In this document: positions 1 to 36,878 of the stretch, in pieces | Numbering within the stretch: position 1 is the stretch's first letter | Layout: each line of letters begins with the position of its first letter | IMG/VR virus record: IMGVR_UViG_3300032050_000002 | Length of the DNA: 64,000 nt | Reading direction: 5' to 3' (one strand) | From: a virus | Taxonomy: Duplodnaviria; Caudoviricetes | Notes under the pieces: model-generated | What the model was told of the DNA's origin: nothing | Databases searched by the model: none | The model's input: only the letters and a program-made list of their open reading frames with translations | Translations under genes and position numbers: made by a program

Positions 1-155
1 AACGACATAGATTGACGTTTTGTTCCGGTATCGATTAACGTTTTTCCTCTTCCTTTTGCAATTCTAACAGTTAATTGTTCGTTAATAGAGTTATTTTTAA
101 AATTAATAAGTTCTTTAACTCTAATTATTTCATTTAATAATGTCTTATTTTCCAT
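1..155 (-). CDS. Hypothetical protein, 5' part only (runs off window edge); N-terminus MENKTLLNEIIRVKELINF...SINEQ
   Basis: Manual translation from ATG at 155, open to position 1; ATATTTAT motif on the minus strand at 174-181; carries the LxE(E)IxRIKxL motif seen in neighbours. Confidence 0.7.
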   Translation of the reverse strand, partial: MENKTLLNEIIRVKELINFKNNSINEQLTVRIAKGRGKTLIDTGTKRQSMS

Positions 156-249
156 TTTACTTATTTATTTATAATAAATATTAGTGATTTAATAATAATT
201 AATATTAATAATATATTTATATTTTAAATAACCCTTAAAGTAATAATAA

Positions 250-588
250 ATGGAACAACAATTTTATACTATATTAATAACATTAATAACGGTATTAAGT
301 TCTACTGCGGCATGGAAATTCTACGAAAGAAGACTTAGTTTAAAGGCTAAAAAAGACGAGGACAGTACAATGGATGGAAGACTTTTCAGAGATGATTTGA
401 GAGATAGAGTTGTTAAATTAGAGACTTTACTAACAGAATCTTCAAAAGAAAAAGATAAAATGAGAGAAAATATCGTTTCATTAACATCACAAGTTTCAAG
501 ACTAGAAGTTGAAGTTGAGTTTCTAAGAAAAGATAATGAATCTTTAAGGTCTGAAAATAATTTATTAAGGGCAACATATAAAATATGA
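250..588 (+). CDS. Small membrane-anchored coiled-coil protein (one N-terminal TM helix; holin/spanin-like architecture, unassigned)
   Basis: Hydrophobic stretch FYTILITLITVLSSTAAW followed by a heptad-rich coiled coil; ATATTTAT at 213-220. Confidence 0.6.
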   Translation: MEQQFYTILITLITVLSSTAAWKFYERRLSLKAKKDEDSTMDGRLFRDDLRDRVVKLETLLTESSKEKDKMRENIVSLTSQVSRLEVEVEFLRKDNESLRSENNLLRATYKI

Positions 589-1100
589 AAAAAATATTAA
601 TAGAAGAATTAATCAAACCAACATCTACGTCAAATGTTAATGTCGGTAAAATCACTTCAATTGAAAAATCAATATTTGATGACATTGATTCATCAGCGAG
701 TGCCTCCAAAGTTAAAGTTAATTTATTAGGTTCAACTTTATCAGGAATGAGTGTATCGTTAGGATTTACACCTATATCAAATGATAAAACAGAAATAGGA
801 GCATTAGTTGATACTTTCGCAAATACAATTTCAAGTAAAGGATATAAAAAAGATAATTTACCAAAAGGATATGTTTGGAAAAAAGGTCAAGACAATAGTG
901 TAAGTTTTGTGATTTATAATAATACAACTGGAGTGAATATTGACCTTAGTAAGATTACCACAGGAGCGTCATCAGAGTTAAATCCTGATGCGGCGGCGTT
1001 AAAAATTATGACCGCTGCGGCGTCTAAAGCAATGCCGGGGGTGATGTCAGAATCAATTAATTATGAGATAATAAGAATTAAAAATTTAATGAGTTTATGA
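585..1100 (+). CDS. Hypothetical protein, putative virion/head protein
   Basis: 171-aa ORF with ATGA overlap; C-terminal ESINYEIIRIKNLM motif. Confidence 0.6.
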   Translation: MKKILIEELIKPTSTSNVNVGKITSIEKSIFDDIDSSASASKVKVNLLGSTLSGMSVSLGFTPISNDKTEIGALVDTFANTISSKGYKKDNLPKGYVWKKGQDNSVSFVIYNNTTGVNIDLSKITTGASSELNPDAAALKIMTAAASKAMPGVMSESINYEIIRIKNLMSL

Positions 1101-1666
1101 AATTTAAACATCCTGTAGATACAATGTCTATTGAAAATTTATTACAAAATAAAATAAAATACAATTCACTAAAAGGGACAAAAGTAGTGATGCCTTATAA
1201 AGGTACAATCAAAGATTTTGATTCTAATACTTGTAACGGAAAATTAGAAATTAAACATAAAATAGACGGAAAAAAATATACTTCTGTTTTGTGTGGAGTT
1301 GAATCTGTATCAAAAAGTAGTTCAGAATTATCTGAGGGTGAAGAAATTGCGGAAATGTCAGGAAACAATCTTATTTGGATGTTAGTTGACCAAGCGGGAG
1401 ATACTCAAAATATTTATGATATTTTTAAAGACAAAGATGATAAAAATAGTGAGGAAAATAAATCAAAGGAAAATAAATCAAAAGAAAACAAATCTGTAAA
1501 ACAATCAAAAGATTATGGTTTTAAAGCCGACCCAATAACAAAAAGATTAATTGATTTAACTACAACACCTTTAAAATTAGTAAATAAATTCTTAGGTGAC
1601 AATAAAAACAAAGATGAAGATAAATTGACTGAAGAAATAAATAGAATTAAACAATTACTAAAATAA
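1097..1666 (+). CDS. Hypothetical protein with degenerate M23-peptidase-like barrel and C-terminal LTEEINRIKQLL motif
   Basis: VVMPYKGTI...GKLEIKH...SVLCGV...SEGEEI resembles the M23 strand order but lacks the HxH zinc motif; internal ENKSK x3 repeat. Confidence 0.5.
   Translation: MKFKHPVDTMSIENLLQNKIKYNSLKGTKVVMPYKGTIKDFDSNTCNGKLEIKHKIDGKKYTSVLCGVESVSKSSSELSEGEEIAEMSGNNLIWMLVDQAGDTQNIYDIFKDKDDKNSEENKSKENKSKENKSVKQSKDYGFKADPITKRLIDLTTTPLKLVNKFLGDNKNKDEDKLTEEINRIKQLLK
1454..1495 (+). repeat. 15-bp in-frame tandem repeat x~3 (ENKSK)
   Basis: gaaaataaatcaaag/gaaaataaatcaaaa/gaaaacaaatct. Confidence 0.85.
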
Positions 1667-1692
1667 AAAAATCCCCTTTTAGGGGATTTTTT
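1665..1692. terminator. Bidirectional intrinsic terminator between convergent genes
   Basis: aaaaaaatcccct-ttt-aggggatttttt. Confidence 0.85.
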
Positions 1693-1716
1693 GTTTCTAA
1701 TAGACACGTTTCTCTA

Positions 1717-1896
1717 TTACTTTACTTCTTTTGTTGAGTCCGCCGCAACAACAGTTGCGGTGTCAACAGGTTTAACTGAATTAGTGTCAACCACAACTAC
1801 CGCAGTTGAATCTGTTTTAGGAGCCTCTGACTCACCACCTCCACAAGAAGTTAACGTTACCGTTAAAATTGCTAATACTAAAATTACTTTTTTCAT
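1717..1896 (-). CDS. 59-aa lipoprotein (not in ORF track): MKKVILVLAILTVTLTS|CGGGESEAPKTDSTAVVVVDTNSVKPVDTATVVAADSTKEVK
   Basis: Manual translation; basic N-terminus, hydrophobic core, lipobox LTSC; ends at the terminator. Confidence 0.85.
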   Translation of the reverse strand: MKKVILVLAILTVTLTSCGGGESEAPKTDSTAVVVVDTNSVKPVDTATVVAADSTKEVK

Positions 1897-1991
1897 TTTT
1901 TAAATTATTGTTTATTTCGTTTAATAAATAGTTGATTAAACCCGATAAGTCAACAAAATTTAATTTTTATTTTAAAAAATTTTATTTTTTT

Positions 1992-35381: not shown

Positions 35382-35631
35382 GAGTATCATTAATTATCGG
35401 TTCTTCCTCTATTTTAACCTCTTTTTTCTTTTTAATTTCTTTAATTACTTTAACGGTGTCGTAAACAATTACTTTTTGTTTTACCTTAACTGTATCGTAA
35501 TATGTTTTAACTTCAGTAGAATTTTCTTTTTTTGGGGTTATTAACGTTAATGTAATCATCATTAATACTAATGCGATTGGTAACATAACCACTGTAAATC
35601 CCATCCAAAATACGCCTTTAAACTTTGTCAT
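35374..35631 (-). CDS. Small membrane protein
   Basis: One N-terminal TM helix. Confidence 0.6.
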   Translation of the reverse strand: MTKFKGVFWMGFTVVMLPIALVLMMITLTLITPKKENSTEVKTYYDTVKVKQKVIVYDTVKVIKEIKKKKEVKIEEEPIINDTLK

Positions 35632-36046
35632 TTGTGATATTTTTATAAATGTTAGATAATGAATGTTTTACGTTTGACCTAATCTCGTTTTCCATAACTT
35701 GTCTTCTAATCTCAACCTCGTTATCGAATGTTTTGAGTAACCTATCATAAGCCTTATATGTAAGGTCAATATTGTAACTGTAATGATGATTTACGATAGT
35801 AATCTTTCCGTTATCCATAATAACAAAGATTTGATTATCTTCACTCTTAATGTAACGTTTCCCTGAAATTGGGGAGATTAATAATTTTGATTTCTCTTTA
35901 TGAATAAGGTTTTTACAAATTGCCAAACACTCATACTCGAATTCTGAATGTTTTGGTTCGTTGGATTGATTACTCGCCCGTAATATTTTTAAACCAACTT
36001 TTTGAAAAAACCTAATTGTTTTGTGTTTTAGGTTGTTTGTATTCAT
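35618..36046 (-). CDS. Hypothetical protein
   Basis: Start moved to ATG 36046, 4 nt downstream of a -7 box. Confidence 0.65.
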   Translation of the reverse strand: MNTNNLKHKTIRFFQKVGLKILRASNQSNEPKHSEFEYECLAICKNLIHKEKSKLLISPISGKRYIKSEDNQIFVIMDNGKITIVNHHYSYNIDLTYKAYDRLLKTFDNEVEIRRQVMENEIRSNVKHSLSNIYKNITNDKV

Positions 36047-36050
36047 ACCA

Positions 36051-36082
36051 CAAAGATAAGAACTTTTTTTTAATTGGCCAAA
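36051..36082 (-). promoter_or_regulatory. Bacteroidota-type promoter (possible leaderless mRNA)
   Basis: Minus strand TTTG (36082-36079)-N20-TATCTTTG (36058-36051)-tggt-ATG. Confidence 0.7.
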
Positions 36083-36110
36083 AAAAAATCCCACTTTTGT
36101 GGGATTCTTT
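36083..36110 (-). terminator. Intrinsic terminator
   Basis: aaaaaaatcccac-tttt-gtgggattcttt. Confidence 0.75.
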
Positions 36111-36112
36111 AT

Positions 36113-36592
36113 TTAACAATAAGGTGGGGAACATCGTTTTTTTCCGTCAGTTCCTGGTTGTTTTCCTTTACATACTTGGACTGCGTAACCATTTGCGTAT
36201 GCTGAAGGGTAAACTTTAAATTTAGATTTTGCTGCCGACTTACCTCTTGCACATAGTTTTGTTCCTGTTTTTTTACGACCTTCCATCATAACTTCATCAT
36301 CGGACCACATATCTCCTGAGTTTTTAGTTTCATTAATCATAAAGTCATACACTTGACTCATATTTTCTTTAGAAACTGTTATATGGTCATCCGCCCAATC
36401 ATGTCCGTTATTTAAAATATCCTCAACCATTTTTGGGTCTAAACTTAATAACTCTTCACATTGTCTTTTAATTTGCTCTAAATTAGAAAAGAACATATAA
36501 TTAGTTATACCATCATAGGTCTTTGATGTTTCATTAACTAGTTTACCAACTAATCTCTGTAATTGCTTTTCTGTGATATTAATCTTTTTCAT
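36113..36592 (-). CDS. Hypothetical protein with N-terminal ITEKQLQRLV motif and C-terminal YPSAYANG domain (DUF5872-like by recall)
   Basis: KLCARGKSAAKSKFKVYPSAYANGYAVQVCKG. Confidence 0.55.
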   Translation of the reverse strand: MKKINITEKQLQRLVGKLVNETSKTYDGITNYMFFSNLEQIKRQCEELLSLDPKMVEDILNNGHDWADDHITVSKENMSQVYDFMINETKNSGDMWSDDEVMMEGRKKTGTKLCARGKSAAKSKFKVYPSAYANGYAVQVCKGKQPGTDGKKRCSPPYC

Positions 36593-36878
36593 TTACAGTT
36601 TCTTTATCAATTAAATTAAGGTCTAATAAACGTTTTGTTAATGTCTTTCTACCAATCTTTCTTAGGTATCTAATAACAATTGGAGGTATGTCATCTTGGT
36701 ATTTTCCAAATAATGTTTTTATTTCATCTTCTTTTGGTGTTGCCTCGTAATCTGCTCTTGACCTTGCGGCTCTTTGTCCTCTCGGACCTTTTTCATAAGG
36801 AGCCTCGTCTTCAGACTCCTTTATTACTTTTTGAACTAATTCACTTAGTTGTCTTTCTGTTAATCTAATTGTTTTCAT
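36579..36878 (-). CDS. Hypothetical protein with N-terminal LTERQLSELV motif
   Basis: 99-aa ORF. Confidence 0.6.
   Translation of the reverse strand: MKTIRLTERQLSELVQKVIKESEDEAPYEKGPRGQRAARSRADYEATPKEDEIKTLFGKYQDDIPPIVIRYLRKIGRKTLTKRLLDLNLIDKETVNEKD

What the first reader, a model, noticed from the sequence alone, without database searches (positions are those of the whole stretch)
1..36878. Family of unrelated proteins sharing short terminal helical tags: candidate capsid-targeting signals
Seen, class A LxE(E)IxRIKxL: LLNEIIRVKEL (1-155), INYEIIRIKNLM (585), LTEEINRIKQLL (1097). Class B (I/L)(T/S)ExQLxxL(V/I): LSEKQLKVI (26231), ITEAQLERLI (34401), ITEKQLQRLV (36113), LTERQLSELV (36579), LSESQINSL (15381). 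Related: ITEDEKKRILGLHE (33010). The tags sit at N- or C-termini, often next to (L/I)xE sites, and are attached to diverse cargo (nuclease-like, PG-binding, M23-like, Cys-rich). Established: T4 internal proteins use a capsid targeting sequence removed by gp21. Inference: a portable head-loading tag system delivering a payload of effectors.
Basis: partly seen in the sequence, partly recalled or inferred. Interest (0 to 1): 0.75.

Follow-up and report, generated by a model that had tools for sequence, protein, structure and literature searches.

The report
Portable head-loading tags on phage proteins
An uncultured freshwater T4-like giant phage and its relatives put three short helical tags on the ends of well over a hundred unrelated small late proteins. 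One tag copies the tail end of the phage's own presumed head-scaffold protein, so the tags most likely load swappable cargo into the phage head, although no virion data exist.

Summary
Seven of the nine listed motifs are real tags: class A at 99-155(-), 1047-1097 and 1613-1663; class B at 26231, 35334-35378, 36592(-) and 36878(-). The 33010 motif belongs to a real third class, C. The 15381 motif is noise.

In 3 Mb of related IMG/VR phage DNA, 299 N-terminally tagged proteins fall into 172 unrelated cargo families. Conservation is at the peptide level, because synonymous codons vary freely. Tagged genes sit behind the same TATTTAT motif as head genes (18/22 against 73/375 other ORFs).

All three classes are bounded by [LIVM]-x-E. 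That is the form of the T4 gp21 cleavage site, and the same site is conserved in this lineage's capsid propeptide.

New here: class A matches the conserved C-terminal end of the gene-22-position (presumed scaffold) protein of five divergent T4-like phages (hhalign P 1.5e-5; three controls 0.17-0.22).

Head loading is therefore the best reading, at about 55%, but it is not shown. No virion proteome exists, and cultured relatives lack tags A and B.

Other agents of this scan reported similar leader-tag systems in this genome and in other genomes. I found no description of these tags in the papers I searched.

The parts
99..155 (-). Class A tag (MENKTLLNEIIRVKELINF) at the N-terminus of an ORF that runs off the window's left end
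   Evidence: 6.5 bits, divergent. A TATTTAT-type motif lies upstream.
585..1100 (+). 171-aa ORFan that ends in a class A tag (1047-1097, SESINYEIIRIKNLMSL*). It is the second gene of an overlapping three-gene late operon, 250-1666.
   Evidence: Position matrix score 16.1, second best of 152 termini. No orthologue in G001.
1097..1666 (+). 189-aa M23-like protein that ends in a class A tag (1613-1663, DEDKLTEEINRIKQLLK*)
   Evidence: 19.0 bits with a profile built from relatives only. Homologous to L120, which has Pfam Peptidase_M23.
21763..21804 (+). Candidate extra C-terminal tag (PEELEEIKRILGII*) on the 68-aa ORF 21601-21807, just upstream of the portal gene.
   Evidence: Third-best terminus in the class A matrix. 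5.8 bits by HMM. Weak.
25204..25926 (+). gp21-family prohead protease (Peptidase_S77), the presumed tag-removing enzyme
   Evidence: Pfam PF03420 at 8.6e-23 and phrog_207.
26231..27220 (+). 329-aa cargo with an N-terminal class B tag (26231-26296). It is a self-contained late cassette (terminator 26177-26205, TATTTAT, ATG) inserted between the protease and scaffold genes.
   Evidence: 24.2 bits. Terminator. Promoter motif. Absent from the same place in G001. PD-(D/E)xK-like is a lead only.
27308..28813 (+). Acidic 501-aa protein in the position of T4 gene 22 (presumed scaffold). Its last residues, 28754-28810 (KTYENPQFLRMKDLMAKIK*), carry the class A-like motif behind an L-I-E site.
   Evidence: The C-terminus is identical or nearly so in all 79 relatives. 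hhalign against class A gives P 1.5e-5. The scaffold role rests on position and composition only.
29909..31819 (+). gp23-family major capsid protein. The predicted propeptide cleavage is after E60 (FLINE|A, codon 30086-30088).
   Evidence: Pfam Gp23. Alignment to T4 gp23 FLTE|A and gp24 LLRE|S.
33010..34146 (+). 378-aa PG_binding_1 protein with an N-terminal class C tag (33010-33102, MKNLFIITEDEKKRILGLHEDATKRQYLSEQ)
   Evidence: 56 bits. The class C tag sits on at least 12 unrelated bodies in relatives. Pfam.
34401..35381 (+). 326-aa Cys-rich basic protein that ends in a class B tag (35334-35378, KITEAQLERLIKYLI*)
   Evidence: 11.8 bits. The same tag is in L001 and L002 (14-17 bits). The G001 orthologue lacks it.
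36113..36592 (-). 159-aa core protein (four invariant Cys) with an N-terminal class B tag (36521-36592)
   Evidence: 30.5 bits. 564 relatives in IMG/VR, and every orthologue examined keeps the tag. AlphaFold2 predicts the tag as helix 8-24 followed by a weak linker.
36579..36878 (-). 99-aa ORFan with an N-terminal class B tag (36807-36878)
   Evidence: 32.8 bits. No orthologue in G001.
15447..15473 (+). LSESQINSL in ORF 15363-16292. Not a tag.
   Evidence: 5.6 bits, at noise level, and 23-29 residues from any start codon.

Best explanation
The motifs are three classes of portable address tags:
- Class A: MNLxENIxRIKxMMG at an N-terminus, or LxEEIxRIKQLxK* at a C-terminus.
- Class B: MxKIVRLTESDLxRLVKRVIKE.
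- Class C: MKKLYFLxEEEKxRILxLHExxTKxxYL.
Each is one amphipathic helix.

Phages of this freshwater T4-like clade attach the tags to the ends of many unrelated late proteins. Most of these proteins are small and lie in self-contained cassettes (terminator, TATTTAT late-type promoter, tag, cargo).

Inferred mechanism:
1. During prohead assembly the tag docks the cargo onto the assembling core or shell. For class A this would be the site used by the C-terminal end of the gene-22-position (presumed scaffold) protein, which carries the same motif.
2. The S77 (gp21-type) protease then cuts at the [LIVM]-x-E sites that bound every tag. The cargo is freed inside the head and leaves with the DNA at infection.

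Shown: portability, peptide-level selection, the late-type promoter, the site-like boundaries, and the likeness of class A to the presumed scaffold end. Inferred: binding, packaging, cleavage and injection.
For: Portability and breadth:
- 3 to 15 class B hits (E <= 1) per related genome, often in clusters.
- At least 217 metagenome proteins share the class B tag at 51-100% identity (mostly 80-96%). The top 118 fall into 55 unrelated body families.
- More than 116 IMG/VR stretches hold the tag; the scan stopped at its cap.
- 299 tagged proteins fall into 172 families (B 129, C 24, A 22). Three families carry B in some members and C in others.
- One protein has a degenerate B tag at its N-terminus and an A tag at its C-terminus.

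Peptide-level selection:
- Four or five synonymous codons are in use at conserved Leu, Thr and Ser positions. T6, E7 and E20 are invariant.

Late expression:
- TATTTAT lies upstream of 18/22 tagged genes against 73/375 other ORFs in a complete relative, P 2.4e-9.
- The same motif precedes the terminase, protease and scaffold genes of the window.

Protease logic:
- The phage has an S77 protease and gp20/gp23 head genes.
- An invariant Glu with L/I/V at P3 aligns with T4 gp23 E65 in 7 phages.
- [LIVM]xE is present at both boundaries of all three classes (85-100% of tags) against 14% of body windows.
- C-terminal tags keep the upstream site and stop before the downstream one.
- T4 has both N- and C-terminal gp21-cut propeptides (PMC9026906).

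Link to the presumed scaffold:
- The gene-22-position proteins of five phages end in FLRMKDLMAKIK*, QVSRWQKLAGIIK*, VERMKKLAGIVK*, LERIKRLAGL* and KSRMQKLADIS*.
- hhalign of class A against these ends gives 79.5% probability and P 1.5e-5. Three controls give 0.17-0.22.
- This end is identical or nearly so in all 79 clade members.

Cargo:
- The few recognisable domains are mostly cell-wall enzymes and GNATs.
Against: - No virion proteome or cleavage data exist for any tagged protein.
- The cultured or deposited relatives searched (Flavobacterium phage immuto, Mel-JY01, RM378) and LR756508 lack class A and B tags; class C was not searched in them. There is therefore no experimental anchor.
- Classes B and C show no likeness to the presumed scaffold end or to the capsid propeptide.
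- Neither class A nor class B matches anything in T4.
- The likeness of class A to the scaffold end was seen by eye first. It passes hhalign and a position matrix but not a plain HMM search.
- The scaffold role of the 501-aa protein rests on gene position and composition only. It has no similarity to T4 gp22.
- Conserved Glu residues could simply be features of the helix.
- Lysozyme, glucosaminidase and PG-binding cargo could equally be lysis proteins.
Confidence: 0.55

Rival explanations
1. The tags are docking helices for some other shared partner that is not the prohead. Candidates are a tail or baseplate hub, a late chaperone, the phage ClpC-type unfoldase or its adaptor, or a lysis or export factor. 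The tagged proteins would then be gathered or regulated together without being packed in the head.
For: - Extreme peptide conservation on unrelated bodies calls for one conserved partner but does not name it.
- 36113 and 36579 lie beside putative tail or baseplate genes (not annotated here) rather than head genes.
- Several cargoes are cell-wall enzymes that could act at lysis or from the tail.
- ClpC is a core gene of the clade.
Against: - Class A matches the end of the presumed scaffold specifically.
- The gp21-type boundaries are unexplained by this reading.
- ClpC is also present in LR756508, which lacks the tags.
- The tags are not hydrophobic enough for membrane or Sec signals (sequence).
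Confidence: 0.25
2. The tags are generic self-association or membrane-binding amphipathic helices with no address function. They recur because such helices are easy to evolve in an AT-rich, Lys/Glu/Ile-rich proteome.
For: - Each tag is a single predicted helix with a 3-4 hydrophobic spacing.
- AT-rich proteomes are rich in K, E, I and L.
Against: - Shuffled proteomes give about 0.02-0.05 matches against 2-5 observed.
- Non-hydrophobic positions (T6, E7, S8, D9, E20) are invariant or nearly so across unrelated bodies.
- There are no hits in non-coding frames.
- The tags are almost always exactly terminal: 304 of 316.
Confidence: 0.1
3. The peptide would be a by-product.
For: - Tagged genes are accessory insertions that differ between close relatives.
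- They form cassettes with their own terminator and promoter.
- An earlier agent read a similar module in this genome as attC-like.
Against: - Synonymous sites of the tag codons vary freely while the amino acids stay fixed.
- The upstream hairpins differ in sequence and look like ordinary terminators.
- C-terminal tags cannot be promoter-linked.
Confidence: 0.07

Closest known systems
Capsid targeting sequence (CTS) of phage T4 internal proteins IPI-III and the propeptides of Alt and gp21 (PMC3012670, PMC9026906)
   Same: - A short terminal peptide shared by otherwise unrelated proteins.
- It ends at an (L/I)xE site of a gp21-family protease.
- The phage has gp20/gp21/gp23-type head genes.
- The cargo genes are variable.
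- T4 also has C-terminal propeptides.
   Different: - No sequence likeness to T4.
- The tags are 20-30 residues rather than 10.
- There are three classes instead of one.
- They are used at either end.
- There are dozens of cargo genes per genome and 172 or more cargo families in the clade, against a handful in T-even phages.
- Packaging is not shown here.
C-terminal coat-binding helices of phage scaffolding proteins, e.g. P22 gp8 (R293/K296 bind the coat N-arm; PMC9965877), and engineered cargo loading by fusion to the P22 scaffold (PMC9962691)
   Same: - The extreme C-terminal helix of the presumed scaffold is its most conserved part.
- It has an Arg/Lys pair on a hydrophobic helix.
- Class A tags carry the same motif. 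Cargo would ride in as scaffold look-alikes, as in the engineered P22 system.
   Different: - Here the fusion would be natural and on many genes.
- There is no sequence relation to P22 gp8.
- Binding to the capsid protein is inferred, not tested.
- The scaffold identity is by gene position only.
C-terminal capsid-targeting tail of the HK97 maturation protease, and encapsulin cargo-loading peptides (from my own knowledge, not read here)
   Same: A short terminal peptide is sufficient to load a protein into an HK97-fold shell. It works on foreign cargo.
   Different: Those systems have one or a few cargo proteins per shell. Here there is a large, fast-changing cargo set and a protease to remove the tag.
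Propeptide-bearing ejection proteins of giant phages phiKZ and SPN3US (PMC5694885, PMC7411985)
   Same: Giant phage heads hold many proteins that are processed by the prohead protease and ejected.
   Different: Those proteases cut at (A/S/G)-x-E. No shared portable tag on unrelated proteins is described in those papers as far as I read them.

Membership tests
T4-type CTS / internal-protein system | One short terminal peptide shared by otherwise unrelated proteins | tested here: met
   55 body families among 118 database hits. 172 families among 299 tagged proteins.
T4-type CTS / internal-protein system | The tag ends at a gp21-type (L/I)-x-E cleavage motif | tested here: met
   Sequence level only. 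E7 and E20 are invariant with L/I/V at P3. Both boundaries carry the motif in classes A, B and C. Cleavage itself cannot be tested with these tools.
T4-type CTS / internal-protein system | The phage encodes a gp21-family protease with T4-type portal and capsid genes, and the (L/I)xE specificity is kept | tested here: met
   Peptidase_S77, Portal_T4 and Gp23. The propeptide site is conserved and aligns with T4 gp23 E65.
T4-type CTS / internal-protein system | Sequence relation to the T4 CTS | tested here: not met
   Profiles of tags A and B find nothing in the T4 genome. The system may work like a CTS, but it is not a sequence member.
T4-type CTS / internal-protein system | Tagged proteins are inside the head and the tag is removed | not testable with these tools
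   No cultured member. The cultured relatives searched lack tags A and B.
Scaffold C-terminal capsid-binding helix used as cargo tag | The tag resembles the conserved extreme C-terminus of the scaffold protein | tested here: met
   Class A only. hhalign P 1.5e-5 against controls of 0.17-0.22. Class B is not met.
Scaffold C-terminal capsid-binding helix used as cargo tag | The reference protein is the scaffold and its end binds the capsid protein | tested here: inconclusive
   It holds the gene-22 position, is acidic, and its end is identical or nearly so in all 79 relatives. There is no Pfam or PHROG hit and no similarity to T4 gp22. Binding was not tested.
Synonymous codons vary freely within the tag. 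The upstream hairpins differ in sequence and are terminator-like.

The most novel reading that the evidence does not exclude
Class A tags are natural copies of the capsid-binding C-terminal helix of the scaffold protein. This phage lineage would load a large, rapidly exchanged set of enzymes and ORFans into its head by making them look like scaffold. The prohead protease would then clip them free at flanking [LIVM]xE sites. Classes B and C would be parallel addresses for other sites in the prohead core. That would be a natural, genome-scale counterpart of the engineered P22 scaffold-fusion nanoreactors. It would also mark the injected proteome of uncultured giant phages directly in sequence data.
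Probability: 0.4. Interest if true: 0.85.

Novelty: new variant of a known kind. Interest (0 to 1): 0.7.

Why it matters
If the tags are head-loading signals, the injected protein set of a large group of uncultured freshwater giant phages can be read straight from sequence. That set is hundreds of cargo families, almost all of unknown function and likely rich in counter-defence and host-takeover factors. The link between class A and the presumed scaffold end gives a concrete, testable mechanism for how T4-like heads select cargo. For T4 itself this is known only as 'affinity for the core'. The tags would also be ready-made parts for packing foreign proteins into phage capsids.

Tried and rejected
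- No whole genome is held for the window. Megablast of the head module against deposited phages found nothing.
- tblastn of the class B tag against 50,697 phage records found no match.
- Tag profiles found nothing in immuto, Mel-JY01, RM378 or T4.
- A plain HMM search does not pick up the presumed scaffold ends. Only hhalign and a position matrix do.
- Likeness of class A to the protease C-terminus is rejected (P 0.22).
- Likeness of class A to the C-terminus of the gene after the portal is rejected (probability 9.9%, alignment off register).
- Likeness of class B to the scaffold end or to the capsid propeptide is rejected.
- Classes A and B are not detectably related to each other.
- A ClpC phylogenetic profile does not discriminate.
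- The internal ITESDL in 23724-24440 is not conserved in G001 and is treated as chance.
- 31889-32614 (7.6 bits) looks like an HNH-type endonuclease with an N-terminal DNA-binding helix. I do not count it as tagged.
- My guesses from motifs that some class A cargo is ParB-like nuclease, kinase or HExxH protease got no Pfam support.
- NCBI-sourced tagged proteins carry no informative names.

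
Full report
WHAT THE WINDOW IS
The window is about 30% G+C. It holds the head module of a T4-related phage:
- large terminase, 17996-19759;
- gp20-type portal, 21875-23701;
- Peptidase_S77 (gp21-type) prohead protease, 25204-25926;
- gp23-type major capsid protein, 29909-31819.

The nearest deposited capsid proteins are only 41-44% identical. They belong to an uncultured 484-kb phage, Microcystis phage Mel-JY01 and Flavobacterium phage immuto. 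No whole genome is held for the window. IMG/VR, however, holds hundreds of relatives. One is a complete 321-kb genome, G001, whose core head proteins are about 64-76% identical and syntenic.

CHECKING THE OBSERVATION
The motif patterns hit no non-coding frame. Residue shuffles of the window proteome give a mean of 0.02 class B matches against 5 observed, and 0.05 class A matches against 2 observed in complete ORFs.

With a class B profile built from relatives:
- 36579 scores 32.8 bits;
- 36113 scores 30.5;
- 26231 scores 24.2;
- the C-terminus of 34401 scores 11.8;
- the 15381 instance scores 5.6, which is noise, and it is not terminal. I reject it.

With a class A profile built only from relatives, the end of 1097-1666 scores 19 bits. 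The other two class A instances are divergent and score 3.9 and 6.5 bits. In a position matrix, the ends of 1097-1666 and 585-1100 are the two best of the 152 termini scored in the window. The cut ORF at 3-155 was not part of that test.

The 'related' peptide of 33010 turned out to be a real third class, C, at 56 bits.

THE TAGS ARE PORTABLE AND WIDESPREAD
Canonical forms:
- Class B: M-x-K-I-V-R-L-T-E-S-D-L-x-R-L-V-K-R-V-I-K-E.
- Class A at an N-terminus: M-N-L-x-E-N-I-x-R-I-K-x-M-M-G-[LI]-[LIV]-x-E.
- Class A at a C-terminus: L-x-E-E-[IV]-x-R-I-K-Q-L-x-K-stop.
- Class C: M-K-K-L-Y-F-L-x-E-E-E-K-x-R-I-L-x-L-H-E-x-x-T-K-x-x-Y-L.

Breadth:
- Four related genomes give 3 to 15 class B hits each (E <= 1), often in tandem clusters. 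In G001 almost all tagged genes lie between 183 and 225 kb.
- A database search with only the first 40 residues of one tagged protein returned at least 217 metagenome proteins, at the candidate cap. The 118 best fall into 55 unrelated body families, and most of them share the tag at 80-96% identity.
- A back-translated tag pattern hit more than 116 IMG/VR stretches before its cap.
- Over 3.06 Mb of related DNA I found 299 distinct N-terminally tagged proteins in 172 body families: B 129, C 24, A 22. There were four C-terminal class A cases and very few internal ones.
- Three cargo families carry B in some members and C in others.
- One protein carries a degenerate B tag in front and an A tag at the end.

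In the window itself the tagged genes are mostly accessory. 585, 1097 and 36579 have no match in G001, and 26231 and 33010 have only partial matches elsewhere in that genome. The G001 orthologue of 34401 lacks the C-terminal tag. The 159-aa protein 36113 is a core gene whose tag is kept in every orthologue examined.

THE CONSERVATION IS IN THE PEPTIDE, NOT THE DNA
Among 25 non-orthologous class B tags, the conserved Leu, Thr and Ser positions use four or five different codons each. T6, E7 and E20 are invariant. The hairpins upstream of tagged genes differ in sequence and are followed by T-runs, like ordinary terminators.

EXPRESSION
A TATTTAT motif lies 9-25 nt upstream of most tagged genes. 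In G001 it precedes 18 of 22 tagged genes against 73 of 375 other ORFs (Fisher P 2.4e-9). In the window the same motif precedes the terminase, protease and presumed scaffold genes and 26231, 33010 and 34401. Gene 26231 is a complete cassette: terminator 26177-26205, the motif, then the start codon. That the motif is a late promoter is my inference, by analogy with the T4 late promoter.

PROTEASE LOGIC
T4 gp23 is cut after FLTE (E65) and gp24 after LLRE (E10). The sequences come; the cleavage positions are from my own knowledge and PMC9026906. The window's capsid protein aligns FLINE|A to these sites. In an alignment of seven phages that Glu is invariant, with L, I or V two residues before it. 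The (L/I/V)-x-E specificity is therefore probably retained in this lineage.

All three tag classes have such a site at both ends:
- Class A: 24/25 and 22/25.
- Class B: 234/239 and 238/239.
- Class C: 34/40 and 36/40.
- Background: 14% of 12-residue windows in the same proteins' bodies.

C-terminal tags keep the site on the cargo side and stop before the other one. T4 itself has N-terminal CTS propeptides of 10-19 residues. According to PMC9026906, it also has C-terminal propeptides on Alt and gp21. AlphaFold2 on the 159-aa family predicts the tag as one helix (residues 8-24), followed by a low-confidence linker. Mean pLDDT is 67, so this is a moderate model.

THE LINK TO THE PRESUMED SCAFFOLD
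The acidic 501-aa protein between the protease and capsid genes sits where T4 has gene 22. It ends in NLIESKTYENPQFLRMKDLMAKIK, and this end is identical or nearly so in all 79 clade relatives.

The proteins in the same position in four distant relatives end as follows:
- immuto: QVSRWQKLAGIIK.
- Mel-JY01: VERMKKLAGIVK.
- RM378: LERIKRLAGL.
- LR756508: KSRMQKLADIS.

These ends share the class A core: hydrophobic residue, x, R, [IMW], [KQ], x, [LM], [AM], G, hydrophobic residue. A profile-profile comparison of class A tags with these five ends gives 79.5% probability and P 1.5e-5. Three controls of the same size give 0.17-0.22. In a position matrix built from relatives' tags, the window's scaffold end ranks fourth of 152 termini, behind two tags and one candidate tag.

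Caveats:
- I saw the likeness by eye first.
- A plain HMM search misses it.
- The scaffold role rests on gene position and composition. The protein is homologous to immuto's (E 1e-9) but not to T4 gp22.

In P22, the last helices of the scaffold bind the coat N-arm through R293 and K296 (PMC9965877). Cargo fused to the scaffold is encapsidated (PMC9962691).

CARGO
Of 150 family representatives only about ten have a Pfam domain:
- PG_binding_1, three times;
- GNAT acetyltransferases, twice;
- phage lysozyme;
- glucosaminidase;
- pterin-4a dehydratase.

A homologue of 1097-1666 has Peptidase_M23. 33010 has PG_binding_1. 26231 resembles PD-(D/E)xK nucleases only at lead level.

VERDICT
That the motifs are real, portable, peptide-level address tags on late proteins is well supported. 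That the address is the prohead is the best reading, at about 55%. It rests mainly on three points: the class A match to the presumed scaffold end, the protease-type boundaries, and the shared promoter motif. Nobody has shown packaging or cleavage, and the cultured relatives searched lack tags A and B.

The system works like the T4 CTS and internal-protein system but is not a sequence member of it. It differs in scale, in having three classes, and in using both termini. Other agents of this scan reported comparable leader-tag systems in this genome and in other genomes. I did not test those reports, apart from the DNA-level reading of the one in this genome. I found no description of these tags in the papers I searched.

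Noticed in passing
window 21601-21807: A 68-aa ORF just upstream of the portal gene ends in LEEIKRILGII*. This looks like a class A/C hybrid tag. It has no orthologue in G001.
   Followed up: partly
window 25858-25923; L131:7420-7485(-): The prohead protease ends in a clade-conserved amphipathic peptide, DKSIDLMKKLxxYLG. The C-terminus of T4 gp21 is reported to be processed. hhalign finds no relation to class A (P 0.22).
   Followed up: partly
window 26177-27220: The tagged 329-aa gene is a whole cassette (terminator, TATTTAT, gene) inserted between the protease and scaffold genes. G001 has only a short gap at that place.
   Followed up: yes
window 31889-32614: A probable HNH-type homing endonuclease lies directly after the capsid gene's bidirectional terminator (31840-31869). 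Its N-terminal helix gives a weak false hit to the class B profile.
   Followed up: no
L293, L301 and L095 (internal hits listed): A few proteins carry a class B tag in the middle: position 274 of 491 in L293, position 170 of 300 in L301, and a second copy at 109-123 in an L095 protein. They could be polyproteins cut into two cargoes.
   Followed up: no
L117:1501-2169(-): One protein has a degenerate class B tag at its N-terminus and a class A tag at its C-terminus. Its homologues carry only the B tag.
   Followed up: partly
window 36113-36592(-): The tagged 159-aa core protein has a strongly conserved C-terminal module (PSAYANGYAVQVCKG) with four invariant Cys. It matches phrog_27331, of unknown function, and occurs in at least 564 IMG/VR contigs.
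   Followed up: partly
window, both strands; G001: TATTTAT is concentrated 9-25 nt upstream of start codons. About half of its 195 copies in G001 lie within 60 nt upstream of an ORF. It is probably the clade's late promoter core.
   Followed up: partly
window 28754-28810 and the homologous ends in L111, L112, L113: Four of the five presumed scaffold proteins have an [LI]-x-E site 15-17 residues before the stop codon. The conserved end could therefore itself be clipped off by the protease.
   Followed up: no
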